Source: Moniliella sp. 'wahieum' (Eukaryota). Taken from it: a stretch of DNA of 64,000 bases. The notes beneath the pieces are model-generated. The model was not told the origin of the DNA. It did no database searches and saw nothing but the letters and a program-made list of their open reading frames with translations. Shown here one piece after another: positions 1 to 26,696 of this stretch (position 1 is its first letter; each line of letters starts with the position of its first letter). The stretch covers positions 124,001-188,000 of the forward strand of contig RSEE01000005.1 in the NCBI GenBank assembly GCA_003971905.1, read 5' to 3'. The translations under genes were made by a program, and so were the position numbers.

Positions 1-285
1 TTCGAAAGAGTCGGAGGCGTCAAAAGCCTGCTCCTCATCCGAGGCGCCAGGGATGTAGTGCTCGACAAAGGAAGGCGAGGTGCCAATGTTCTCGGCGTAG
101 AAAGCCTGGGAGCGGGAGTAGGACCAAACAAGATCCAAGCTGCTCTTCCATGTTGGCTGCTGGTGGCCACGAGTCTCGCGATCACGGCGGCCCGAGGATG
201 GGCCAGGAGCGGCGCCTCTACCACTGGGCCCAGGCACGGGGCGCGGCGTGGGGATGGGCTTGCCACTGGGCGCGGCGGCAGGCAT
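1..285 (-). CDS. 5' end of a gene running off the window; possibly a vacuolar amino-acid transporter (Avt1-like) N-terminus
   Basis: Open frame from ATG at 285 to the window edge: MPAAAPSGKPIPTPRPVPGP...WKSSLDLVWSYSRSQAFYAENIGTSPSFVEHY. The product guess rests only on resemblance of the SLDLVWSYSRSQAFY segment. Confidence 0.4.
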   Translation of the reverse strand, partial: MPAAAPSGKPIPTPRPVPGPSGRGAAPGPSSGRRDRETRGHQQPTWKSSLDLVWSYSRSQAFYAENIGTSPSFVEHYIPGASDEEQAFDASDSFE

Positions 286-10994: not shown

Positions 10995-13900
10995 TCACTC
11001 CTCCTCGTCGACCTCGATCCGGGTGGCGAAGGAGTAAATGTCAGGGTCGCATCTTCGGACTTCTCATGGACGACGGTGAGGCGCTGCAAGTTGGTAAAGA
11101 AGTCTTCCAGGACCTCGTTCTTGGTCGAACGACCCGACGGCCCATACGGTTGATCCAGCCAATCTTGTTCAGCACGTAGTACACCACCGTGACGATAGTC
11201 ACACCAATGGATACGCCCAAACGCGCACAACAGTAACCACGTCGGTCCAGGTGTGTGCTTGTTGTGGCGCAAGCGGGGGAGTGAATGTACTCGGCAATTG
11301 GCCCGCCGAGCCAACCAAAGAGACAGAAGAGTCGTGGCCAACGCATCAACACCAGAATGGCCCCGACCAGCTCCCAGGATGGGATAGTGTTCTCATCCGC
11401 CGAGCCGGAACCAAGAGGGTGACAAAGATGAGCCAGTTCTCAGTAAGCGAGACTTCCAGGAAGAGGATGAGCTGCAGGTTACCAAAGTTTTGCACAATCC
11501 CACCGTCCGGAAGGAAAAGGGTACCACGAACAATCCACGTGCCGGCCGCAAGCAGGATGCCCAGATGGTGAGATGGTCCAGATCTTGGGCAGTTGCCACT
11601 CGACTGGCTCCTTGGCAGCGGGAGCATTGTCGTAGGCAATGGCGATCGTGGCCAAGTCGGCAAAGAGGGCGATAAAGACAATCAGGTCGGCACGGATCAC
11701 CTCGTCCCGGATGCAGATCGAGAGCAAGAGGTAGATTTCAAGGTGGAGACAGAGCGAGATACGGTACTGGATGTACGCCTTCATACGGTGGAAGATCTGA
11801 CGAGCAACCTTGATCGAGGTAATGATGGTCGACAGACCCTCGTCGAGGAACACCACGTCGGCTGCCGAGCGGGCAGCGTCCGATGCGCCCTCGACGGCGA
11901 TCCACAGTCTGCCTTCTTCAGCGACGGGGCGTCGTTCACACCGTCACCCGTCATGGCGACCAGGTGACCACGGTGCTGGAGCATCTCAACGACCTGGTAC
12001 TTGTGCTCGGGGAACACCTCGGCGAACCCGTCAGCAGCCTCAATAAAGTCGTGGATGGCCGAACCAGCCAGACCGCCAGATCCAATCAGACGCTGCGAGT
12101 CGTACACCTTGGTACCAAGCGAAAGCATCTTGCACGTTTCCTTGGCAATGGCCACCGCGTCACCCGTAAGCATCTTGACAGCAATCCCCAGGTTCTGGGC
12201 CTCGGCAATCGTCGCAGCCGTGTCACCACGAGGAGGGTCAAACATGGGCATGAGACCGAGGAGGTGCCACTCGCCATCGTTGATGGCAACCCGAGGGAAC
12301 GGAAACCACGAGAGGCAAAGTCGCCCGAGACCTTGCGGTACTGGGCAGCCTGCTCAGGGTCGGGTTGGCAGAGCTTGAGGATCGCGTTGGGGGCGCCCTT
12401 GGCGGCGATAAACTGCTTCCCATCCTTTTCCACCTCAGCGTGATGCGTTTGGAAACAGGGTCAAAGGGAGTGAAACGGTGGGTAATCCATCCGGACGCGA
12501 GCTCTTCCTGCGCACCGGGGGGTAGTCCTTAAGGGTGGAGATGGTGACCTTGTCAATGGGGTCGAGCGACTTGATGTTGTGGGACGAAGCGAGGGCAGCG
12601 ACAGCCATCATGAAGTTCACGTCCACACCCTCCGAGGTGAAAGGCTCGTGGATAGAGAGTTTGTTGGCAGTAGGGTACCCGTCTTGTCCGAGCATAGCAC
12701 GTCGACACCGGCCAACGACTCAATGGCGGTGAGCTTTTGAACGATAGCCTGACGCTTGGCGAGGTAGGCAGCGCCGACAGCCATGGTGGTGGTGGTGACG
12801 CAGGGCAGACCTACAGGAACACCGATGACAAGGAAGATCAGTGTAAGTGAGCAAGTTGTTCTCCTTGGGCTCAGCAATGCCAGTGTGGCGGAAGAAACCC
12901 GAGATCCAGAAACCGACAACAAAAGCCATGACCACACGAGCAACGCAGTGCCGATCGAGTCCATAACCTTTTGGAAGTGACCCTTGGAGGTACCGCCAAG
13001 CACAAGGGCAGCGGTGCGGCCCACAAACGTCTGCTTGGCAATGTCGGTCACCAGGACGTAACCCTTTCCACGCTTGCAGCCAGTGGTGTAGAAGACCGTG
13101 TCACCAATGTGCTTGTCGACGGCCAGCGACTCACCCGTAATGGCCGACTGGTCGCAGGCAATGATGGCCGGGCCTTGTCCACGCCCTCGTCATCATCCTC
13201 GTCATGAGCAGTAGCACGTGCCTTCTCAAGAATCGCAGCGGCCGCCGAACCATCCTTGTCATCATAGTCGGCCAAGAGACGGCCGTCGCAGGGAACCGTC
13301 TGACCGTCCTGAACCACGACAATGTCGCCGGGCACAACCTCCCGAGCCTCAATCTCAATCTCTTGACCGTTGCGAATTACAAAAGCGCGGAGAGCAATGC
13401 CAGCCTTGAGCTGGGCAACAATGTCGCCAGCCTGTTTCTCCTGGTACCAACCGACAAACGCATTGAGAGCCAAGATACCGCAGATAACACCCAGGTCGAT
13501 CCAGTCACGAAGACCACCAGCCAGCGCAACCGCCAACTCCATCACGTACAGAATGGGACCCTTGAAGAACCCAAGGAACTTGAGAAAGAGGTTCTCGGAC
13601 GGAGCCTCCAGCTCATTGTAACCAAACTGGGCACGCCGAGTGTGGACATCCGACTCGGACAGACCCTGCTGCATGACGTCTCCAGCCTATGAGATGCGTG
13701 AAAGCGGGATGTCAGTAATGTGAGGCCGAAAGGGATGGGGTGAGGTGTGGCAAAGGCAAAATGAGGGGACAGGGAACACGTACCAGCTGGCGGGGACCTT
13801 GGCAGCTACGGTCTCCTCCTCCCCGTCTTTGTTGACGCGGATCTCACGGACCTTCCAAGGGCGGAGGAGCTCGCGTTTGCGGACGATGGTAACACCGTCG

Positions 13901-14019
13901 ATTTCACCATCGTCGGCAGAAACAGACTTTTGGGCGCGAATAAAGTCGATGAGGGCGGCATATTCGTCGTTGACGTGGGCGCCGTAAGCGCCCTTGGCGT
14001 AGCCTGCGTCGTCGGACAT
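10995..14019 (-). CDS. PMA1: Plasma-membrane P3A-type H+-ATPase (intron ~13687-13783; frameshifted)
   Basis: [44 protein letters not shown] phosphorylation motif, [58 protein letters not shown]. Confidence 0.97.
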
Positions 14020-17000
14020 AGCGAAAGGGGGGAGGCCCGGCGGTCGGGTGGCTGGTGGAGGGAGGGGACGAAGGGGGGAAACGACAGGGAGCAGAAGGGA
14101 GGGTATGGCGGAAGCGGGGTGTGGGCGCAAGGGTTATATATACAACCTAACGCCGAGGAGAACCACTATTAGCTCCGAAGAGCGCACAGAGGAAGAAGAG
14201 GGCCGCGCACAGGCCCCATGAGTGCCCCCACGCTCTGCCGGCGGACATTGCCTGGGAGACACGGCGCCAGTATTGCGGTCGCAGCCGAAACGCTGCTGTG
14301 GAGAAGCGAGGGGTGCAGGGCCAGGGCGCTGCCGTGCGACGCGGAGCAGGCCGGAGGAGGCGCCGCCGGCCAGCAGCTCAAGCGGGAGGGGGTTCAGCTC
14401 GTGCAGCCGGCGCAGGCCGCTGGCAGGGGGCTGTATCCGCCACCGAAGACCCTGCGCACCGGGCAGCCGGTCTCAGGTCGCAGCACAGGCGCAGACTGGG
14501 AGCAGCAGATAGACTGCTCGTGTGCCTGCGCTTTGCATCGTCCCAGCCAGAAGGAAGGGAGTCGCTAGTTGCTAGTTGCGCCCCTGTCGCTGTCAGCCGC
14601 AGGACCAGTGGCTGCTCTCCTCGGTGCTGCTAGGCTCCGCTGCCGCCACCACACGCCGGGTACCGGTTGGGCCTTAGACTAGGCCTAGGCCTTAGGCCAG
14701 CTACTAGTTACCACGTGTCAGTTAGGCGTCTCTGCACGAGCCAGCTCGCGCTCGCGGATCGCCCTCCCCACATACACAGACGCCGTGCGGGCCGCCTGTC
14801 AATGCTGTTCACAGCACCACAGCGCACCTCAGGATATTCCTGCTGCCCCATTGCTCCCTTGGCCCATTAGGGTTGCCCTTGGCCGGGCTGCTTCGGCTGG
14901 ATCTGGACTGCTCCTGTCCCTTTGCCTTTGCCGGCCGGATGCATTCCCACGCCGGCCTCCCCCGACGCGCGCGTCGCTCACAAACGAGTGCTGACACGCC
15001 CTCGCCATACCGTCGCTGGAAGAACCTTGGTCCGATGGCACGACTGCCTTCCTCCGTCCTTCGTTCGCATAGATACGCCCCCGCCGATTGGTGCTATCAG
15101 AGGAGACAGTAAAACGCAGCCGTTGTGTGGAAACCACTGCAACGAAGGGCCAATAAGGATGCCTAATGCTAGGCGCGTTAACGTTACGCGCTATTGAGGG
15201 TCCTAGGCCCTGAGAACATCTGATGAGGGAAGAGAGGTACGTCCTTGGGCGTCTCTCCCACGGCCTGCTAACCAACGGCGAGTGGAAAAGATTTGATATG
15301 CGCGAGAGCGAGCAATCTATAGTGCGCAAGTCTGATGTCATATGCTACAGTCTTCGTAACACATGCCAAACAGCCTCAAACAAAACGATACAGGATCCAC
15401 ATTGAATATGGGGTGTAAGCGCGTGCGAGCCGCAAACGCCGCTATCTAGTACCTATCCCGGTATTTGGGTCTGCGGTCCCGGTATAGGGGAAGATAATGT
15501 GTGCATTAGGTACTAATTGTGGGTACAGGGCAAAGCCGCACATATTATCGCAAAGCAAAAGCAACCCGCATTTTCCCACAACCCCTCTTCCTGCAATACA
15601 TATACTGTTGGCGTCGTTTTGGATCGCGGCCCGACTTTGATATTCGTAACGGGGTAAGTGAGTTAAACCGGTTAAACTGTTAAACGTTAGAAGGTGGATG
15701 GGGTGCAGCCACAACACTATTGTCTTTCCACAGTCTGTATGCTCTCTCCTCGACGGATCGGCGTGCGGCATTGGGTCTTACCGCGGCGGGAGCCGTGGGT
15801 AGCTGGTGTAATGCTATGGCCGGAGGGGCGTCAAAAAGAGTCGGAATGGCAGTTTCCTTCCCATGGGAGTGTCTGTGTGGGGCGGCTGCGGCCTGGAGGG
15901 CTCTCACAGCGCCTGCTGGGACTAGACCCACATGTGGACACCGGTCACACATAGTCACCAGGTTTGCTGGGGCCTGATTTCTTGTTAGGGCTTGAGATCT
16001 GAGAGATCCAATATCTGCCAACCGTGCAATATGGCATGTTGACACATGCGACAGCGTGTGCTGCGCCCCTCTCTCGGCTGTAACATGTAACAAGATGTAG
16101 GGCACGGACTAGCGGTCCATGTACGAGATCATCATGCCCAGGTACGTGTGTGTAGGTACACTATTTATAAGAAAGAAGCTTATATATAGCTTTAGCGTTT
16201 TACCTTTTTTTAGAGTGTTACGTCGATGCCAGCACCGCGCGTCCTCGGGGCCAACGTGTGGTGTGCACGACATGCGGACAACAGACTCGGCCCACAACAG
16301 AAGACGTACTATATACATACAATCCTTTTCTTTGTCTATACGAGAGTAGCCACTCTGCCCTACTGAGGCCTGAGGCTGACAGACAGCCTGACCAGCGTAT
16401 TATATATAAGCATCACAGATCAGATCGAGCGGCTCGTGATGGCCAGCGGCACAAGCGCCTCTCGGTGGCTTTTGTCGATACATCCGAGAGATACTATCAT
16501 GTAGGCAAGAACCACGGGACGAAGGAACAACTGACAACAGATGGCGTCTGCCACTTGGTACTAGATAAATTGACTTTGTGTCGTCACCATGTCCCAGAGA
16601 TGTTTGGGACATTGGAAGTTATTAGTGAGCGGCGTTTAGATAGAGGCTGTTGAGGCTGAGACCGGAGGTCTGGCCTAATACCTAAAACTTGAGAAGTGGA
16701 AAGCGCACCGATGGTCATATTGACCCAGGATTCAGGGTGGCATCATTATGTGGAAAGAAGGGGCAGCCACCCAACCCACACACTCTAGCGGTGCCGCGGT
16801 GCCGCACTGCAGCGTCTAACTCCACCATATAAATAAGGAATCATCAAACCACAAACACTCTTGTCACGCGTCACGGGCGACGGTGGCGGGCCCGGCCGAG
16901 TCCGGCCGAGCCCATCCTCTCCCCTTGTCTCCCTTGCCACGGTTAGGTCCACTTCACGACGGAACAGTGAACTGTGGCTGGTCTGAGATCTGAATGTTGA

Positions 17001-17179
17001 GCAAACCTATGCGCTCCGTTGTGTTTTTAAACGGAGTATGCTCCCTTCGATCTAGGCACTGTGACCAGGATTTGTTAGAGGGTACTGCTAGGTTCTCCTG
17101 CGCGGCCCTCAATGGATCGGTGACGCTCGCCTAGCCGAGCGGAAGCGTTCCGCTCGCAGGCCGCGCACGCCCTGCTCGC

Positions 17180-17215
17180 TCCATCTCCCTTCTCTCTCTC
17201 CTTTCGCCTTCCCTT
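17180..17215 (+). promoter_or_regulatory. CT-rich tract typical of fungal transcription start regions, preceded by the hairpin/palindrome CGAGCGGAA-GCG-TTCCGCTCG (17136-17156)
   Basis: TCCATCTCCCTTCTCTCTCTCCTTTCGCCTTCCCTT lies directly before the structured region. Function is inferred only. Confidence 0.4.
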
Positions 17216-18617
17216 CAGACGTTGCTTGAAGACTTGTGGCTCACCACTTTGCCTTCACGCCTTGTCTGAAGGCTGCTTTGCAGCTGATCCATAGGATCGC
17301 GAGTGCTCCCAAGTCGCACTCTAGCAGGATTAATCCTTTTAGTGCGGCTGCGAGTCGATGATCGAGACCATCCGTACGTGGGCTTCAGAGTCCCTAATTT
17401 GGTCCTACCTCACAATTATTTGGTGTCTTTTTGGTCTTGGACGCAAGTGAGCTCTAAGTGGAGCATATTGAGCCTCCGGGTTTGGACGTCAGTCTCCTGG
17501 CCCGAGCGTCTCGTTTTCGTTGTGAGATCCTCCCCCCATGCCTCGCGCCTTTTGCGTTTCTAGCCGAGGGGGGAGAAGTTGCCCTTTACCATGGGCTTGG
17601 GCATTTGCTCCGACGGTGACCGGTCTCACGGTGACCGGGGGCTGGCTTCGCCGATTGTGGAGCCCTTCGAGCCTCACATAGTTCCGAGACTCTGCGGGCT
17701 CCGAAGACTAGTGATGCATGATGCAAGCGTAGCCACATTATCCCGCGGCTTAGTGGTCTTCTCCTGTCCTGCTGTTTACCACCAATGCATATTTCTCTGG
17801 CGCAATCGATCGGCTACGCTACTGTCCTATCCGCTTTAGCATCCATTGCGGCTTCCATATACCAGGGGCGTGGGTCCGGACGTCACTACACATTTCGGGT
17901 TTTGTCTATTCTCGTTTTCCGGGTTGAGTGTGGGTGCCTTTCCCTAAGATCAACTGTGCTCCTTAGTTCTGGGAGCCAATGCACTGATCTCGATTCCTTT
18001 CCCTTTCTTCGTTGTGTTGTTTATCGTCTGTCCATTATAGATCCTGCGTGGAAGCCCCTAGGCTTATTTGATCCTTGTTCCTTTCCCCCTAATGGCTCAT
18101 TTTGTCGTACTCGTCTTGTCCTTCGTCTATTACATCGTCTTCTTCGTCCCCATTTCGTCTCTTCATCTCGTCCTTCGTCCTTGACAGCGGCATTTTTGTC
18201 AATGCATGATCGTTGACCTCAACCACCGGAAAACACCCGCCTTACTCCTACTAGAATAGTTCACCAGCAGTCCCTTTGACGTGCTTTCAGTGACCACCTC
18301 TTGGTCTTTCCGTATATCCTTTCGACTGTCGAACGTCCATTGTCCATCTCATGCTTTCAGTCCCTTCTCTGTATAGAATCCGCGGCAATCCTACAAGTCT
18401 GTTGAGTTGGTCTGGGACAGGACCTGTCCTCCTTCAGTCTTTGCCTGCGTCACCTTCAGGCATTTGAGCCTATAGGCACGCTGCTAGTCTTGCTCGTTCC
18501 AGTGGATATACGCAACCTTTTGTCAGGCGAGCCAACTCCGACGCCCCAATTGAGAGGTCTGACCTCTTCGCCTCTGCTAAAGGATCTACCATCAGTAGGG
18601 ATCAAGCTCGATCAACC
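17200..18617 (+). ncRNA. Candidate large (~1.4 kb) structured non-coding RNA of unknown family
   Basis: No credible ORF. More than ten mutually compatible nested helices were found by eye, several with G-U pairs that work only on the + strand (details under findings). Confidence 0.55.
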
Positions 18618-18950
18618 GTGAGTGGCCTGCCCTCCTCCAAGGGAAGACTTCTTTAAAGGATACAACAACATGAGGGAAGAAACGCGAATTGACCGCGAGC
18701 AAGTGATAGGCACGTGAGATACCTGAGCTTCGTTAAAACAAGGGGCAATAAGAGAGGATAGAGAAGATACGCTGCGACGAGAAACGAGAGGCTAGTGCGA
18801 ATCACATCACAGAGGGCAGGTAAAAATGGTATTGCAGTGGCCATAGCACGCGGCCTAATGCGAGGATCATCCGAAGCAAACAAAACATACACAACCACTG
18901 CAGTCACGGGAAAGCGTGGTCCAACGGGGCTCAATGGTGGGCTCAATGGT

Positions 18951-20923
18951 TTAATCCTCCCTGCTGTTCAATCCGTTCCGGGAGGCGGGCGTGGAGGGTG
19001 GGCGGTTCCTGCAAAGTGTTGCTCGCCGCCGCCTGGACATGCGCAAGGGCCGCAGCAAGGGGATGGTGTTCGTGCATGGGGAACGAAGGGGGCACCGTGG
19101 CTTCCCATGCCGGTGGCGGGGTTTGGACCAGGTAGCCTTTCGTCTCGCCTCTCCGCGAACTTTTTCGACCCGCAGCTCAAATTGCAAGGCGCCCGCCGGG
19201 TCCAGTCGTACATCGCACCAATTCCGCGCTCCGATAATGTACTTGTCATTCTGTTTCTGGCCATCCAGACCTTCCTCAAACAAGCCCAGCATCGTCTCCT
19301 TGGTCCCAATGTAGAAGAGCGAGCGGTGTTTTTTGGCGGCAAGTTTGTTGAGGATGGTGATGAGCGCCGCGGGCGGAGGGGTATTGACAATGGCCGAGGT
19401 GATCATGGCGAGCATGTGTTTCGGGTCCTTGGGCGCATCCTGGTGCGTGTAGCCATAAAACAACCCTGCTCCCCCAGCGTGCACGTCGCCCGAGACAAAG
19501 GAGATGCGCAACGCACGGGCAGTAGCGAGGTGCTGCAAGTGCTCGACGAGCCAGTTGCGTTCGCGCTTGTGCGGAGCGGCACACCAATGGTCCCCCAGGT
19601 CGTCGAGAAGTTCGGGACGTTCGTCAAACGAGTTGGTAAACCCACTGCTGATGTCTTGGCCAACATTACCAATGGGTTGTGTGAGTTGGACAGCATCTTC
19701 TCGACAAACACCATGCGCGGGTACGCCACGGTACGCCGAGGAGTACCACAAGGTGGGTGACCGAGCTAGGGAGTTGTACAAGTTATACAGGACCTTGTGG
19801 TACGTTGCCTCGCTTACCACCGTGTTGACCGTCCGTTCAGCGCGACAGTCGAGAGAGAGGAGATACTGCTGGGGTCCCAGGTAGGTGAGGAAGGAGTGAC
19901 CGCGAGCACCCTTGATGAAGGAGGCGTCCACCGCACCAAAGATGATCGACTTGTTGGGATGAGTTACCTCGTCGGTGCCATCAACCTCGTCGACGAGGAA
20001 CTGCTGGAAGAGCAGGTACCACCAGTAGCCGCGGGTACCAATGTGGTTAAAGATGGGGGTGGTGGACCATTCGGTTTTCGTAGGTGCCAAAGCCATCGAT
20101 CAAGTCATGATCGTCGGTCATGTTGACCATGGGGATCTGGGCAATGGCACGGCTAAATGCACCCGTGGAGAACCACTCGGTATACCATTGGATCCAAAAC
20201 CGGTCTAGGCCGATGCGGATTTCCTCGGTCAGGGGCATGGCACCCCGCTCGTGGGCATTTTTGCTGTTATGCCAGGCTTGAAGCTCAGGCTCGCGGACCA
20301 TGCGGTCACAGTAGACTGGATCGACGGGTTAAGGTGGGCCGAGGGGAGCAAGAAAGGTGGATAGGACGTACTCTGATCGCCGCCTCCATTAAGCACGTGG
20401 AAAGGGTTGCGCTCGTGCTCGCGCAGCAGGTCGTCCCACACGGGGTTGGGGCCATTGAAGTCGTCGGGTTGACGGAGAGGGAGAAACCGTTGCAGGAGTA
20501 GGCAGCCCAGTGGAAGTTTTGCTGGGCACCGGGGACAGCAAAGGTGTAGGGACGGGTGGGGTCGACCGAGTCGGGCCGCTGCTGGGGCTTGGGGGCAACG
20601 CGGCCCGGGGAGATCTGGTAGGAGCAAAAGGTAGGGGTGGGGGCCATGGGGATCTCGAGCAGGAAGCGCCAGAAGGTCACGTCGCCGGCGGGCCCTGTGT
20701 AGTGATAGAGGGGTGTGGGATGGGCGACAGCGGTGTGGCCGTGGGCGGGGTCGAGGGGCGCGTTGGGCTGCGGGGCCACGGTCCAGACGAGTTCGGGGGC
20801 GAGGCCGGGGGTGGAGTGGGCATTGTCGACAGAGAGGAGGACAAAGATGCGGTAGGTGTTGCTGATGACAGTGTCGTACTTGAGCATGGGCCCAGCGGGC
20901 ACCTGCAGTGTGGGTGCGGCCAT
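18951..20923 (-). CDS. Fungal PhoD-like metallophosphatase family protein (intron ~20316-20371; frameshifted)
   Basis: GPMLKYDT, TFWRFLLEIP, WAAYSCNGFS, PFHVLNGGGDQ/IYCD, IPMVNMTDDHDLIDGFGTY, ELLDDLGDHW, ISFVSGDVH, MITSAIVNTPPP. Confidence 0.85.
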
Positions 20924-22584: not shown

Positions 22585-24201
22585 CTAATCGAATGTTGTT
22601 TTCGTTCCGGCGGGCGCTGCGGCCACAGGAGCACGCTGAGCCTGAGCCAGTGCTGCGCCCGGCGCAGGACGGTGGGAAGACCCGCCCTTTTTGGCGGCCC
22701 TGGCGGCGGCACGTTCTGCCTGCGTTGGCTTGTGGGCCTTTGGCAATGGGGCTGAGGATCAAAGGGAGCTGGGGCTGGAGTTGATACCGGTTGGACATCT
22801 CCACCAGTGGCGGGTGCCCCCCATTGGCGCATGGCGGGACCGGACTCTTTCTGTTCTTGGTCTTGCTCTCGCTTCTGCATCCGTGCCGTCTTACCCAAAC
22901 GCATCGGCTTTGGCCGTTCGGTATCCAACAGACGAACAGCCTTCTTTGCCCCGCGCCGAACTGCATCGGGGGACGCATAGGCCACTTCCAATTGTCGCCC
23001 AAGAAGTCGGTGGGTGGCAGGCGCATCGATCAACGACGCCGTGGCATGCTCCAATGTGTGAAAGTCAACAAATGCCCATCCTTTGCACTTTTCGGGTGCA
23101 TCCTCAAATGTTCCCATCCGGATTTTGCGGATCCCAGCACCACGGATCTGCTTGGACCCACTCTCTTGGCAGCCTTCTTATCCTTGGTCGAGGCTTTGGT
23201 CGACGCAGCGGCCTCACCGGCCTCGTCTGCTGCTACTTCGCCATCCTTCATCTCTGAATCTGAATCAGAGTCGGAGTCCGAACCAGAATCAGCGCCTGGG
23301 CCAGATGCAGCCTGGCTCTTCCAGCGGCAGCAGCCTTCTTTTGATTCCGGTTCATCCGCTCCTCGGCTGCCCGGGTCAGCATCATTTCAATGTCGGCTGG
23401 GGTGGTCTTGAAGCTAAGGTTGCCAAAGAAGAGGGTTTCGGCGGGGGGGTGGCGCTGTTTGCGCAGGATGGCAGCTGCCGTTTTGGGCAGACCCGGGCGG
23501 GCCTTTTGGGCCTCACTCAACGCATTCTCACCGGCTTGCACCGCCGCCGAGGGAATGGGGCCGGCCGGAAAAGTCGCCGGCCGACTTGATGAGGAGCTTA
23601 CGTCCGTCCAGCATCAACTCCGACATGCGAATGCCAATCTCCACTTCAGCCTGGGAAGGCACGTCGACATAGCGTACCCGCGGTTCTTTTCCCCCTTGCG
23701 CACGCCCTTGGGCATGGCCACGCGCGAAATGCCGTGGATGCCCTTATCCTCCAACCATTCCACCAGGTGCTCCGACGTGGTCTTGAACGACATGTTGCCC
23801 ACCCACAGAGCAAACGGAGACCGCGCATCTTTTTCCTTCGTGTGTCTACCTGGACTTCCGGTTCAGGCAGACCTTGTTCCGCCGCTGCGCACTCGCTTTG
23901 GCCAACTTTCTCCGTTTGCGTGCCTCCTTATGCGAGATGGCCTCTTCCTCCGTCACCTCATTTGGCTGTTCGGATTCAGCAGCTGCTTCCTCGACAGGTT
24001 CCGTTGCAGCAGCACCATCGGCGTCCGTATCGGGGGCGGGACGCTTACGCTTTTTGGCCTCTTGACCGCGGAGGTCGGGCTTGGCGGGCTTAGCGCAAGC
24101 GCCGCCTTGGCTTCGGCGCGCGCTGCCTTTTTGGCCATGCGAAGCTCCTTATTGGTCAGTGCGGGTGTGTCCGCAGATGCGGCAGGTTCAGTGTCGGACA
24201 T
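22585..24201 (-). CDS. NOP13: Nucleolar two-RRM protein, Nop13/RBM34-like
   Basis: LWVGNMSFKTT...NRGYA (RRM1); TLFFGNLSFKTT...IRMGTFEDAPEKCKGWAFVDF (RRM2); C-terminal GAALAQAQRA...GTKTTFD*. Confidence 0.85.
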
Positions 24202-24770
24202 GGTGCCTGCCGATGTTCACAAAGCGCCTGTCAGGGGTGGTGGAGGAGGGACACCCCGCGCCCCCGCCTTGCCTCCACCAAGCCAAAGCCTGCCCAAGCT
24301 GGACTAAGTTGGCCTGCTTGCTGGCCCATCCCGCCAAAAAAATAGGCTGCTCTTTGCACCGATTCCCCACTGTGCACGTGATGCATGATGTCTTTTCCAA
24401 TCTGAAATGATCACTGGTGTTGAGTTGAGATCGATGATCGGTGGGTCACCATCACGCGCATCACGTGACGAGTGGTGTTGCCACCTGAAATAAGGGAGAG
24501 GGCCGGGGTGGGCAGGTATTAATTGCGCCGTTAACCCTAGGTATATTACGCTAGGAGCCGCAAAGGGGCAGTGACCTTCCTGGCCCACAGGGTTTGTGGG
24601 CACAGGGGCGGTGTGGGGCCCGAGCCGCGCTTGGCCCGGGGTATCGAGCCGCGGGAGTGAGGTGGCCTCGCAGCCTTTCACCATCTACCCAGCTAGTCCG
24701 GAGGTCAAGGTCCGTCTTTCCTCGCGCCACGGTTGGCAGCGCTAGCTAACGTTAGCCCTTTTCTTCGCAG

Positions 24771-25191
24771 ATGTCGACCCAGGCTTCGTCCTTCAAGCGC
24801 TACGTCGAGGTGGGCCGTGTGGTGCTCATCAACGATGAGAAGTCGCCGGTCAACGGCAAGCTGGCGGTGATTGCCGAGATCATTGATGCCAACCGGGCCA
24901 TCATTGACGGGCCTACCACGGGTGGCGCGCCAGCCGTACCAGTACAAGTACTTGCTCCTGACCAAGTTTGTGGTCAAGGACCTGCCGCGCGCGGCTCGCT
25001 CCAAGGTGGTCAAGAAGTACTTCGAGAAGGCTGGTGTGGCCGAGAAGTGGGCCGCGAGCAACTGGGCCAAGACCCTTGCTTCGCGCGCTGCCAAGAAGTC
25101 CACCACTGACTTCCAGCGCTTTGAGATTACCCACCTCAAGCAGCAGCGGAGGAAGCTGCTCGGCGCGGAGCTGAAGAAGACGGCGGCCTAA
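24771..25191 (+). CDS. RPL14: 60S ribosomal protein eL14; 5'-UTR intron ~24710-24770 ends immediately before the ATG
   Basis: [13 protein letters not shown]...[20 protein letters not shown]...[12 protein letters not shown]...TTDFQRF with one frameshift. Intron GTCCGT...GCTAAC...TTCGCAG|ATG. Confidence 0.96.
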
Positions 25192-25569
25192 CCATTCTTG
25201 ACTACCCCTGTCAAGAAACATTCCCGTTGCCCCCTCTCTCTTTGCCCGTCTGCTGGGAACGTACCGCTGCCGTCCCGAATGAATGGACGTGGTGGCTGTC
25301 TCCCAACCGAGTATGGCACTACTTGACGTGACCGTTGATCACGGATGTGGTGTATGCTCATTCCACCCGCCTTTTGTCTCCGACTTCAGGCGACAAAAAC
25401 CTACTCAATTCATTGAGGACGCCTCTCATGGCGTTCATATGATGTCGATGCAGGGCGATTTCCCTGTGATATCTATAGCGTCTGGACAGATAGGGACGCA
25501 TACACTAGTAACGATGTCCGAATTACGTGGGATGGCAGTGTCGGTTGCAGTCGATCGAACAAGGGTGAT

Positions 25570-26696
25570 TTAGGCCCCAAACTTGGTCCCGGTAATCTTC
25601 TCGAACGCCTGGGCATAACGATCCCGGGTCGCCGCAATGATCGTGTCCGGCAGCAAATGGGTTTCCCACCGGCCGGCTGCTTGTCAGGGCCAATGAGTTT
25701 CGTCTCCAACAACCAATCGCGCACAAACTGCTTGTCAAACGAGGTCTGGGACCGGCCCACAGCATACGTGGCGGCATCCCAAAAGCGGGAGCTGTCGGGT
25801 GTCAGCACCTCATCCACCAGAATCAGCACCTCTTCCACCCCCGTTTGGGGGTTGACAAAGCTCGGTTGTGCCTGCACCAGCGGGGTCGAGGGCAGGTGCG
25901 CCCGGGGCACCAGTCCAAACTCGAACTTGGTGTCAGCCAGGATCAGCCACGGGTGGCAGCATGTTCGGCCGCCCGGGTGTAAACAGCTTTGGCCGTCTGA
26001 GCTAGGTGGGCAGCAAGTGTCGTTCCATACTCTCCTCCACCCAAGATCTTGGGACCTGGTCCGGGTGGATGTTCTCGTCATGGTCGCCCTGTTCCGCCTT
26101 TGTGGATGGGGTAAAGAGTGGGCCATTGGGGATCTTAGCGCTCTCCTCCAGCCCGGCGGGAAGGGAAATGCCATGCACCGTACCGGCACGCTTGTACTCG
26201 GCCCAGCCACTGCCAGAAAGGTAGCCACGAACAATTGCCTCAATGGGAATGACGCTGGCGCGACGCACGAGCATCGAACGGCCCTGGGCACGCTCCAGCG
26301 CACCGGCCGACTTGTTCAGAGTTTCCTTGAGAGCGGTAGGGAAGGTTGACACAGAGGTGCTGAGAACGTGGGACGGCACAATTCCATCCTTGTGGAGGTG
26401 AGCAGGTCAAACCAAAAGGTAGAGATGCCAGTCAAGATCTCCCTTGGATGGGACACCCTACATAAATGAATTAGTGTCTCCTTCTCGTACTGATAAGGGG
26501 GGGGGGGGGAAGGACGCACGTTGTCCATCAGAACATCAAAGGCACTGATGCGGTCCGAGGCAACAAATAGCAAGGGTGCTTCGGCGCCCTGTTCACCCTG
26601 CAGCACGGACTTTGTGTCGTATACGTCGCGCACCTTTCCCCGAGCTAGAAGCGGTAGGGGCAAGTCGCTCTGCAAGACAGCGGCGGGCAGACCCAT
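25570..26696 (-). CDS. ADE1: SAICAR synthetase
   Basis: [93 protein letters not shown]. Confidence 0.97.

What the first reader, a model, noticed from the sequence alone, without database searches (positions are those of the whole stretch)
17200..18617. Candidate ~1.4 kb highly structured non-coding RNA between PMA1 and the PhoD-like gene
Seen: no credible ORF, but many nested, mutually compatible helices. 5' part: CCTTCAGAC 17212-20/GTCTGAAGG 17264-72 (inner TGAAG/CTTCA, GTGG/CCAC) and AGTCGCACT 17312-20/AGTGCGGCT 17341-49. A ~400-nt domain is closed by TCCGGGTTT..CTCCTGG 17475-500/CCAGGGG..GGGTCCGGA 17862-80. Inside it lie GCCCG 17500-04/CGGGC 17695-99, GTCTCG 17508-13/CGAGAC 17685-90, TGTGAG 17521-26/CTCACA 17673-78, CTCCCCCC 17530-37/GGGGGGAG 17568-75, GCTCC 17607-11/GGAGC 17659-63, CCGGTC/GACCGG 17620-38 and AGCGTAGCC 17726-34/GGCTACGCT 17812-20. 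A second arm pairs CTATTCT-C-GTTTTCCGG-GTTGAG 17906-28 with CTCAAC-CA-CCGGAAAAC 18218-34 and AGAATAG 18253-59. A third pairs GAGTTGG 18404-10 with CCAACTC 18532-38 and holds internal hairpins. G-U pairs in several stems favour the + strand, and a CT-rich tract precedes the region. Established: fungal telomerase RNAs are 1-2 kb, multi-armed and poorly conserved (about 1.3 kb in Ustilago maydis). Inference: this is either a telomerase RNA or an undescribed large ncRNA. I could not find a 1.5x TTAGGG template, only CCCTAA at 17392, 17942 and 18087 and a terminally redundant TACTCCTACT at 18243-52 in an unpaired segment, nor a convincing pseudoknot or P6.1.
Basis: partly seen in the sequence, partly recalled or inferred. 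Interest (0 to 1): 0.85.

Follow-up and report, generated by a model that had tools for sequence, protein, structure and literature searches.

The report
Non-coding spacer, not telomerase RNA
The stretch between a proton-pump gene and a phosphatase gene of this smut-related fungus is non-coding, but it has no telomere template and only its first third folds better than chance, equally on both strands, so it looks like ordinary spacer DNA that may hold an unproven promoter.

Summary
Complementary words are no commoner than in shuffles (6-mers: 222 against 197±17.5).

**Folding.** The 1418-nt stretch folds only modestly better than shuffles, and better on the minus strand (z -3.3) than on the plus strand (z -2.1). 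The excess is confined to about 17000-17720. Windows starting at 17700-18500 fold like shuffled sequence. Only 5 of 15 proposed helices have high pairing probability; both closing helices and the third arm have about 0.

**Non-coding status holds.** There is no 3-base periodicity, no Pfam domain in 88 ORFs, and no homologue of the longest ORF.

**Telomerase RNA fails its defining test.** No permutation of 1.5x CCCTAA lies inside the finding, there is no Emi1-like ORF upstream, and there is no Rfam hit.

**A plus-strand transcript is possible.** Hints are a TATAAATA box (16828), CT-rich tracts and pyrimidine skew up to about 18600. No RNA run, genome or alignable relative could be reached, so this stays untested.

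**Earlier scan notes.** This scan noted another telomerase RNA candidate on a different piece of this genome; I did not check it.

**Verdict:** ordinary non-coding spacer, possibly an unannotated transcript; low interest.

The parts
16828..16835 (+).
   Evidence: one of only 2 exact matches in 64 kb (expected 0.10+-0.30). The other is at 16162-16169 on the - strand. That it works as a promoter is inferred.
16911..16938 (+). First CT-rich tract downstream of the TATA-like box
   Evidence: Read from the sequence. It has the same TATA-then-CT layout as the PMA1 promoter on the other strand (TATATATA at 14135-14142, then pyrimidine-rich sense strand to the ATG at 14019).
17013..17157 (.).
   Evidence: The 200-nt windows starting at 17000 and 17100 give z -3.1/-0.8 and -3.5/-3.1 (+/-).
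17178..17216 (+).
   Evidence: Read from the sequence.
17212..17349 (.). Hairpins 17212-17272 and 17312-17349, which contain the 12-nt palindrome 17326-17338
   Evidence: inverted repeat I1: 20-nt arms, 80% complementary; mean pairing probability 0.91 and 0.92. Both also form on the - strand.
17490..17705 (.). Imperfect inverted repeat (arms about 17490-17526 and 17673-17705) enclosing the G/C hairpin 17530-17575
   Evidence: z -2.49, 3 of 200 shuffles as stable (+); z -3.28, 0 of 200 (-). The inner hairpin has P 1.00, but the outer arm helices have P only 0.05 in the full-length ensemble.
17720..18617 (+). Pyrimidine-rich body with no excess folding. It holds three 13-15-nt odd palindromes (18321-18334, 18415-18430, 18553-18568)
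   Evidence: AT skew to -0.41 and GC skew to -0.25, flipping at about 18600; z about 0; 5 short hairpins against 1.7+-1.2 expected (3 of 100 shuffles reach it). Palindromes listed.
17712..17725 (.). Perfect 7-bp tandem duplication. Others lie at 18168-18182 and 18335-18347
   Evidence: Period-7 self-redundant words in 17200-18617: 19 against 6.9+-3.0. This is the same kind of micro-duplication that earlier scan notes describe genome-wide.
18618..18623 (+). GTGAGT (splice-donor-like hexamer) at the point where the strand skew flips
   Evidence: Read from the sequence. Significance untested; such hexamers occur by chance.

Best explanation
17200-18617 is part of a 4.9-kb non-coding spacer between the start of a PMA1-type proton pump gene (ATG at 14019, - strand) and the end of a PhoD-like phosphatase gene (stop at 18951, - strand). 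It is not a telomerase RNA, and it is not shown to be a highly structured RNA gene.

Most of the listed helices are the complementarity that any 1.4-kb sequence offers. The real excess is a cluster of short DNA-level inverted repeats at about 17000-17720, which fold equally well on either strand. Some of them belong to the small palindrome-forming 7-bp duplications that mark the non-coding DNA of this genome; others could be protein-binding palindromes of a promoter region.

The pyrimidine-rich + strand, a TATAAATA box at 16828 and two CT-rich tracts make it plausible that RNA polymerase II starts near 16.9 kb and reads rightwards. Any such transcript would be a low-constraint non-coding RNA rather than a folded machine.

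Shown: non-coding status, lack of a template, location of the folding excess, and its presence on both strands. Inferred: the origin of the palindromes, promoter activity, and lack of RNA function.
For: Non-coding:
- 3-base periodicity is 1.0-1.4 across 14000-18700, against 3.2-4.9 in PMA1, PhoD and other coding stretches.
- The codon-usage scan never exceeds 0.08 there, against >=0.25 in exons.
- 0 of 88 ORFs >=40 aa and 0 of 11 small ORFs reach a Pfam cut-off.
- The 164-aa longest frame has 0 hits among 1.84 billion representatives.
- PhoD homologues end at about 19105, so no exon lies hidden below 18950.

Structure:
- z is -2.1 (+) against -3.3 (-).
- k-mer complement counts are at chance.
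- The excess occurs only at 17000-17720, on both strands.
- In the baseline of 80 windows across 1-32000, mean z is -0.13 and sd 1.1.
- 10 of 15 helices have P<=0.18.
- Short-hairpin density is 12 per 1.6 kb. That is high (window median 6, 95th percentile 10) but is equalled or exceeded at 23.4-26.2 kb, up to 14.
- 7-bp duplications occur inside the stretch at about the density of the rest of the spacer (3 in 1.4 kb against 6 in 3.5 kb).

No known RNA family: 0 Rfam matches at gathering score. Only 3 matches appear at E<=10, all with E>=1.3. No tRNA.

Promoter hints.
Against: - The 5' third (17000-17720) does stand out. z<=-3 is found in 1 of 80 (+) and 2 of 80 (-) baseline windows, and one of these on each strand is the 17201 window itself.
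- 17000-17420 folds better on the + strand (z -3.88, 0 of 100 shuffles) than on the - strand (z -2.70, 1 of 100).
- A 4.9-kb interval without a gene is the longest stretch without coding periodicity in this window.
- The TATA/CT layout plus 1.5 kb of strand skew looks like a real transcription unit.
- Neither conservation nor expression could be examined, so a functional lncRNA is not excluded.
Confidence: 0.6

Rival explanations
1. A real + strand RNA polymerase II long non-coding RNA gene, about 16.9 to 18.6 kb, with a hairpin-rich 5' domain (17000-17720). It would act in cis on a neighbour, for example by running convergently into the 3' end of the PhoD-like phosphatase gene, or by influencing the PMA1 upstream region.
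For: - TATAAATA at 16828 (+) is one of 2 exact matches in 64 kb, against 0.10 expected.
- CT-rich tracts at 16911-16938 and 17178-17216 mirror the TATA-then-CT layout of the PMA1 promoter.
- T>A and C>G skew runs over 17000-18500 and flips at about 18600.
- There is no coding signal.
- Local folding excess occurs at 17000-17720, with z -3.88 on + for 17000-17420.
Against: - No transcript evidence of any kind could be obtained.
- Structure is not strand-specific overall.
- Two thirds of the body fold like shuffles.
- 7-bp insertions are tolerated inside it.
- Promoter motifs are consensus matches only.
Confidence: 0.22
2. An orphan protein-coding or small-ORF gene on the + strand, with short exons or a peptide of 30-46 aa, missed by composition tests.
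For: - Small ATG ORFs lie on the + strand: 16994-17134 (46 aa), 17358-17450 (30 aa) and 18092-18184 (30 aa); the last two are hydrophobic..
- A weak periodicity bump of 3.8 occurs near 18000.
- A GTGAGT donor-like site is at 18618.
Against: - There is no periodicity elsewhere.
- 0 of 11 small ORFs and 0 of 88 longer ones match Pfam at cut-off.
- The longest frame has no homologue.
- T-rich DNA yields hydrophobic ORFs by chance.
- The bump coincides with a degenerate direct repeat (family D1).
Confidence: 0.08
3. A decayed mobile element or pseudogene remnant that left a gene-free, compositionally odd block.
For: - The interval is unusually long and gene-free.
- An imperfect inverted repeat lies at 17490-17705.
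- Earlier scan notes mention solo LTRs in this genome (not checked here).
Against: - None of the 88 ORFs matches any Pfam family at its cut-off, so none matches a transposon-protein domain.
- No second copy or similar stretch lies in the window or among scanned windows.
- No terminal repeats were found.
- RIP-type indices are unremarkable.
Confidence: 0.08
4. The telomerase RNA of this fungus.
For: - Its size (about 1.4 kb), non-coding nature, and single CCCTAA hexamers at 17392, 17942 and 18087 fit.
- UmTER is 1,291 nt (PMC9564094, abstract and passages).
Against: - In 16800-18700, 0 exact matches and 1 single-mismatch match to the six 9-mer permutations of CCCTAA were found. The one match is on the - strand at 16939, outside the finding, and 69 of 100 shuffles do as well.
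- TAACCCTAA, the Ustilaginales template, has no match with <=1 mismatch inside the stretch.
- No other C-rich 1.5x word is convincing.
- Terminally redundant words such as TACTCCTACT are at chance frequency (period 6: 32 against 25.6+-6.1).
- No twin-Cx9C (Emi1-like) ORF lies upstream.
- No Rfam telomerase family matches.
- The nearest relatives by protein are Tilletiaria and Tilletia. Exobasidiomycetes outside Microstromatales are reported to have canonical repeats (PMC13234504, passages).
- An earlier scan note places a better candidate on another piece of this genome (unchecked).
Confidence: 0.02

Closest known systems
Ustilago maydis telomerase RNA (UmTER/ter1; PMC9564094 and PMC10035886, passages read)
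   Same: About 1.3-1.4 kb, non-coding, in a Ustilaginomycotina genome, lying between protein genes.
   Different: UmTER carries the template 5'-UAACCCUAA-3' and is cut from the 3' UTR of the Emi1 (twin Cx9C) mRNA. Here there is no template in any permutation and no Emi1-like ORF upstream. Pseudoknot and P6.1 could not be anchored.
TATA box plus CT-rich tract core promoters of fungi. The general pattern is recalled; the in-window example is the PMA1 promoter at 14024-14142.
   Same: TATAAATA at 16828 is followed by CT-rich tracts on the same strand, as in the PMA1 promoter on the opposite strand.
   Different: No ORF follows. The second CT tract lies about 350 nt from the TATA-like box. Activity is untested.
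Cis-acting lncRNAs at phosphate-regulated genes of yeasts (for example upstream or antisense transcripts at PHO genes).
   Same: A possible non-coding transcript lies next to a phosphatase gene.
   Different: The arrangement here is convergent (3' end to 3' end), no transcript has been shown, and the PhoD-like gene's regulation is unknown.
7-bp palindrome-forming micro-duplications at TNA sites, described by earlier notes of this scan in the same genome
   Same: Perfect 7-bp tandem duplications lie in and around the stretch. Several are of the form TNA-[4-bp palindrome]-TNA, for example at 17712, 16079, 16363, 16863 and 14686. Period-7 words are enriched, 19 against 6.9+-3.0.
   Different: They explain only some of the hairpins. 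The strongest stems (17136-17157, 17212-17272, 17530-17575) are not of this type. Short-loop palindromes are not enriched window-wide (89 against 80+-12).

Membership tests
Telomerase RNA | Template of about 1.5 copies complementary to the telomere repeat (UAACCCUAA in Ustilaginales) | tested here: not met
   0 exact matches in 16800-18700 on either strand. The only single-mismatch match is at 16939 on the - strand, outside the stretch and at chance level. The species' own telomere repeat could not be read because no genome is held. TTAGGG is assumed from relatives.
Telomerase RNA | Template-pseudoknot domain with a boundary element | not tested
   Without a template there is no anchor, and no pseudoknot search was run.
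Telomerase RNA | CR4/5 domain with a P6.1 stem-loop | tested here: inconclusive
   No Rfam family matched, telomerase families included. I recall that none of these is built from basidiomycetes. No dedicated P6.1 model was available.
Telomerase RNA | Ustilaginales locus type: downstream of the Emi1 (twin Cx9C) ORF on the same strand | tested here: not met
   2 twin-Cx9C patterns in the six frames of the window, neither within 14020-18950. Outside Ustilaginales this is a lineage trait, not a strict requirement.
Telomerase RNA | Expressed RNA bound by TERT | not testable with these tools
   No RNA run is listed.
Structured non-coding RNA (any described family) | Match to a curated covariance model | tested here: not met
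   0 matches in 64 kb at gathering score; 3 matches at E<=10, best E 1.3, all far below gathering.
Structured non-coding RNA (any described family) | Strand-specific folding energy below shuffled controls | tested here: inconclusive
   Whole stretch: z -2.1 (+) and -3.3 (-). 17000-17420: -3.88 (+) and -2.70 (-). 17440-17720: -2.49 (+) and -3.28 (-). Windows starting at 17700-18500: about 0.
Structured non-coding RNA (any described family) | Compensatory base changes in relatives | not testable with these tools
   No genome is held. No look-alike exists in scanned windows. One 1,361-bp metagenome contig covers only the PhoD gene. The nearest protein relative is only 52% identical.
RNA polymerase II lncRNA gene | Core promoter elements on the proposed strand | tested here: met
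   TATAAATA at 16828 (+) and CT-rich tracts. These are consensus matches only, not evidence of activity.
RNA polymerase II lncRNA gene | No coding capacity | tested here: met
RNA polymerase II lncRNA gene | A transcript with defined ends | not testable with these tools
   One search lists no RNA holder. laid only DNA contigs.

The most novel reading that the evidence does not exclude
An unannotated + strand RNA polymerase II lncRNA of about 1.7 kb (about 16.9-18.6 kb), with a TATA/CT promoter and a hairpin-dense 5' domain. It would run convergently toward a PhoD-like phosphatase gene and sit upstream of PMA1, regulating one of them in cis.
Probability: 0.2. Interest if true: 0.35.

Novelty: not a real feature. 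Interest (0 to 1): 0.12.

Why it matters
Telomerase RNAs are known from very few basidiomycetes, so a new one in an unsampled smut relative would have been valuable. This locus fails the template test, so effort should go to the other candidate that this scan noted in the same genome.

What remains is a hint of an unannotated transcript beside a highly expressed pump gene, which is a routine annotation matter.

The check also shows that in this genome short DNA palindromes can make non-coding DNA look like folded RNA. This is a useful caution for similar findings.

Tried and rejected
- **Sequencing runs.** One search listed no RNA holder. The single DNA run X1 held 5% of the sampled words. Laid, it gave PMA1 exon pieces of other fungi (12 of 15 laid records under 90% alike) and a few small patches (bins 14107-14708, 17117-17417, 17719-18019, 20127-20427) with long unlike tails. 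I draw nothing from it.
- **Whole genome.** None is held, so telomere repeats at contig ends and other copies of the stretch could not be sought.
- **Relatives.** There is no look-alike in other scanned windows. The metagenome scan with the PhoD-like protein returned one 1,361-bp contig without flank.
- **Repeats.** No similar stretch lies elsewhere in the window.
- **RIP-type decay.** The indices are unremarkable.
- **tRNA.** None found.
- **First coding map.** The codon-usage map proved insensitive in this intron-rich genome, so I relied on periodicity and homology instead.
- **Small hydrophobic ORFs.** I considered them as possible pump-associated proteolipids but did not pursue this, because there was no way to test conservation.
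- **Spliced-ORF search.** An exhaustive search was not run.

Full report
**Context**

The window comes from a fungus. Its PhoD-like protein is closest to that of Tilletiaria anomala (52% identity) and Tilletia species (46%), so it is a smut relative without a close sequenced neighbour.

- On the minus strand, exon pieces at 11781-13686 match the plasma-membrane proton pump model TIGR01647 best (E 1.9e-58, 1.4e-49 and 6.5e-39). They also match the Pfam E1-E2 ATPase, hydrolase and Cation_ATPase_N families.
- The likely start codon of this PMA1-type gene is at 14019.
- Also on the minus strand, the frame 18951-20099 matches PhoD_2 (E 1.2e-31).
- The C-termini of four homologues align down to about 19105, so no PhoD exon lies below 18950.
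- The finding therefore sits in a 4.9-kb interval (14020-18950) between the 5' end of PMA1 and the 3' end of the PhoD-like gene.

**The observation**

The ten arm pairs I tested by script are all at the stated coordinates. Nine are perfect Watson-Crick and one has a G.U pair. The CT-rich tract is at 17178-17216.

The number of complementary words is what a sequence of this length and composition gives by chance:

| Word length | Observed | Dinucleotide shuffles |
|---|---|---|
| 6-mers | 222 | 196.6+-17.5 (17 of 200 shuffles reach it) |
| 7-mers | 54 | 47.5 |
| 8-mers | 16 | 11.1 |
| 9-mers | 4 | 2.7 |

*Whole-stretch folding.* The plus strand folds to -444.6 kcal/mol, with z -2.1; 2 of 45 shuffles fold as well. 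The minus strand folds to -463.9, with z -3.3; 0 of 45 shuffles reach it. The claim that G.U pairs favour the plus strand therefore does not hold overall.

*Where the excess lies.* In 200-nt windows across 14000-19200, z<=-3 occurs on the plus strand only at starts 17000, 17100, 17200 and 17500. On the minus strand it occurs at 17100, 17200 and 17500, plus one outlier at 15700. The nine windows starting at 17700-18500 give z+ between -0.8 and +1.5.

*Baseline.* Eighty windows spread over 1-32000 have mean z -0.13 and sd 1.1. z<=-3 occurs in 1 of 80 (plus) and 2 of 80 (minus), and one of these on each strand is the 17201 window itself.

*Larger pieces.*

| Piece | Plus strand | Minus strand |
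|---|---|---|
| 17000-17420 | z -3.88 (0 of 100 shuffles) | z -2.70 (1 of 100) |
| 17440-17720 | z -2.49 (3 of 200) | z -3.28 (0 of 200) |

*Pairing probabilities.* In the ensemble of the full stretch, 5 of the 15 helices tested have high probability (0.83-1.00). Two have about 0.18 and three have 0.05. Five have about 0, including both halves of the helix said to close the 400-nt domain and the third arm.

The multi-armed architecture is therefore not supported.

**Nature of the local signal**

- *Short perfect hairpins (stem >=6, loop <=12).* These are enriched in 17000-17720 (7 against 1.8+-1.5; 0 of 100 shuffles) and in 17720-18620 (5 against 1.7+-1.2; 3 of 100). They are not enriched in 14000-17000.
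- *Density in context.* The density of 12 per 1.6 kb is in the upper tail of the window (median 6, 95th percentile 10). It is matched or exceeded at 23.4-26.2 kb, where it reaches 14.
- *DNA palindromes.* Several are palindromes with loops of 0-1 nt, which RNA cannot use as hairpins (18321-18334, 18415-18430, 18553-18568, 17326-17338).
- *7-bp duplications.* Period-7 self-redundant words are enriched (19 against 6.9+-3.0). Perfect 7-bp tandem duplications lie at 17712, 18168 and 18335, and six more lie in the rest of the spacer. Many have the form TNA-[4-bp palindrome]-TNA. Earlier notes of this scan describe the same pattern across this genome. These insertions are as frequent inside the stretch as outside it, which argues for weak constraint.
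- *Limit of this explanation.* Short-loop palindromes are not enriched window-wide (89 against 80+-12), so this process explains only part of the signal.

**Coding capacity**

- There is no 3-base periodicity: mean 1.0-1.4 in 14000-18700 against 3.2-4.9 in coding stretches.
- There is no codon-usage signal. That measure is weak in this intron-rich genome.
- 0 of 88 frames of >=40 aa and 0 of 11 small ATG ORFs reach a Pfam cut-off.
- The longest frame (17722-18213, 164 aa) has no hit among 1.84 billion representative proteins.

**Telomerase RNA**

- *Expected template.* The Ustilago maydis RNA has the template UAACCCUAA and is processed from the 3' UTR of the Emi1 mRNA, which encodes a twin-Cx9C protein (PMC9564094, abstract and passages; PMC10035886, passages).
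- *Template search.* In 16800-18700 no permutation of 1.5x CCCTAA occurs exactly on either strand. The one single-mismatch match lies at 16939 on the minus strand, outside the stretch and at chance level.
- *Other candidate words.* No other C-rich self-redundant word is convincing. Words like TACTCCTACT occur at chance frequency.
- *Locus context.* No twin-Cx9C frame lies in the interval.
- *Rfam.* No match at gathering score, and only three matches at E<=10, all with E>=1.3.
- *Telomere repeat of relatives.* Exobasidiomycetes outside Microstromatales, Tilletiaria included, are reported to keep canonical repeats (PMC13234504, passages). Malassezia shows that templates can drift (PMC12506658, passages). 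The species' own repeat should therefore still be read, which I could not do because no genome is held.
I did not check it.

**Hints of a transcript**

- *TATA-like motifs.* Of 16 TATAWAWR matches in the window (expected 1.54+-1.27), 10 lie between 14135 and 16835. The only two exact TATAAATA matches are at 16162 (minus) and 16828 (plus).
- *PMA1 layout.* TATATATA at 14135-14142 is followed, on the sense strand, by a pyrimidine-rich tract down to the ATG.
- *The same layout on the plus strand.* TATAAATA at 16828 is followed by CT-rich tracts at 16911-16938 and 17178-17216, and then by 1.5 kb of T>A and C>G skew that flips near 18600.
- *What this suggests.* By inference only, RNA polymerase II may start near 16.9 kb and read rightwards.
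- *Expression data.* No RNA run holds the stretch, and the only DNA run gave nothing usable.

**Verdict**

The stretch is non-coding DNA that does not meet the defining test for a telomerase RNA. It does not show the strand-specific, global structure that was claimed. The hairpin cluster at 17000-17720 and the promoter-like motifs leave room for an unannotated lncRNA, at about one chance in five. This is an ordinary result and scores low.

Noticed in passing
window 14135-16835: TATA-like motifs are concentrated here. 10 of the window's 16 TATAWAWR matches lie in this span, and the only two exact TATAAATA matches point in opposite directions (16162 minus, 16828 plus). It looks like a divergent promoter hub inside a gene-free interval. 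The minus-strand box would drive a second ORF-less unit toward 14.3 kb.
   Followed up: partly
window 14564-18789: Nine perfect 7-bp tandem duplications lie in 5 kb (14564, 14686, 16079, 16363, 16863, 17712, 18168, 18335, 18777). Most have the form TNA-[4-bp palindrome]-TNA, the pattern that earlier scan notes report genome-wide.
   Followed up: partly
window 14024-14142: PMA1 core promoter layout. TATATATA lies 116-123 nt upstream of the ATG, followed by a strongly pyrimidine-rich sense strand. A block of 68% G+C lies at 14000-14900 just upstream.
   Followed up: no
window 23400-26200: This region has the highest density of short perfect hairpins in the window (12-14 per 1.6 kb against a median of 6). 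One 200-nt window at 24401 has z -3.6 on the minus strand.
   Followed up: no
window 18321-18568: Three perfect odd palindromes of 13-15 nt with a single central base (18321-18334, 18415-18430, 18553-18568) lie within 250 nt. They could be sites for dimeric DNA-binding proteins or mutational products.
   Followed up: no
window 18653-18844 (minus): A 63-aa ATG ORF in the presumed 3' UTR of the PhoD-like gene ends in a Cys-rich CaaX-like tail. It is probably chance.
   Followed up: no
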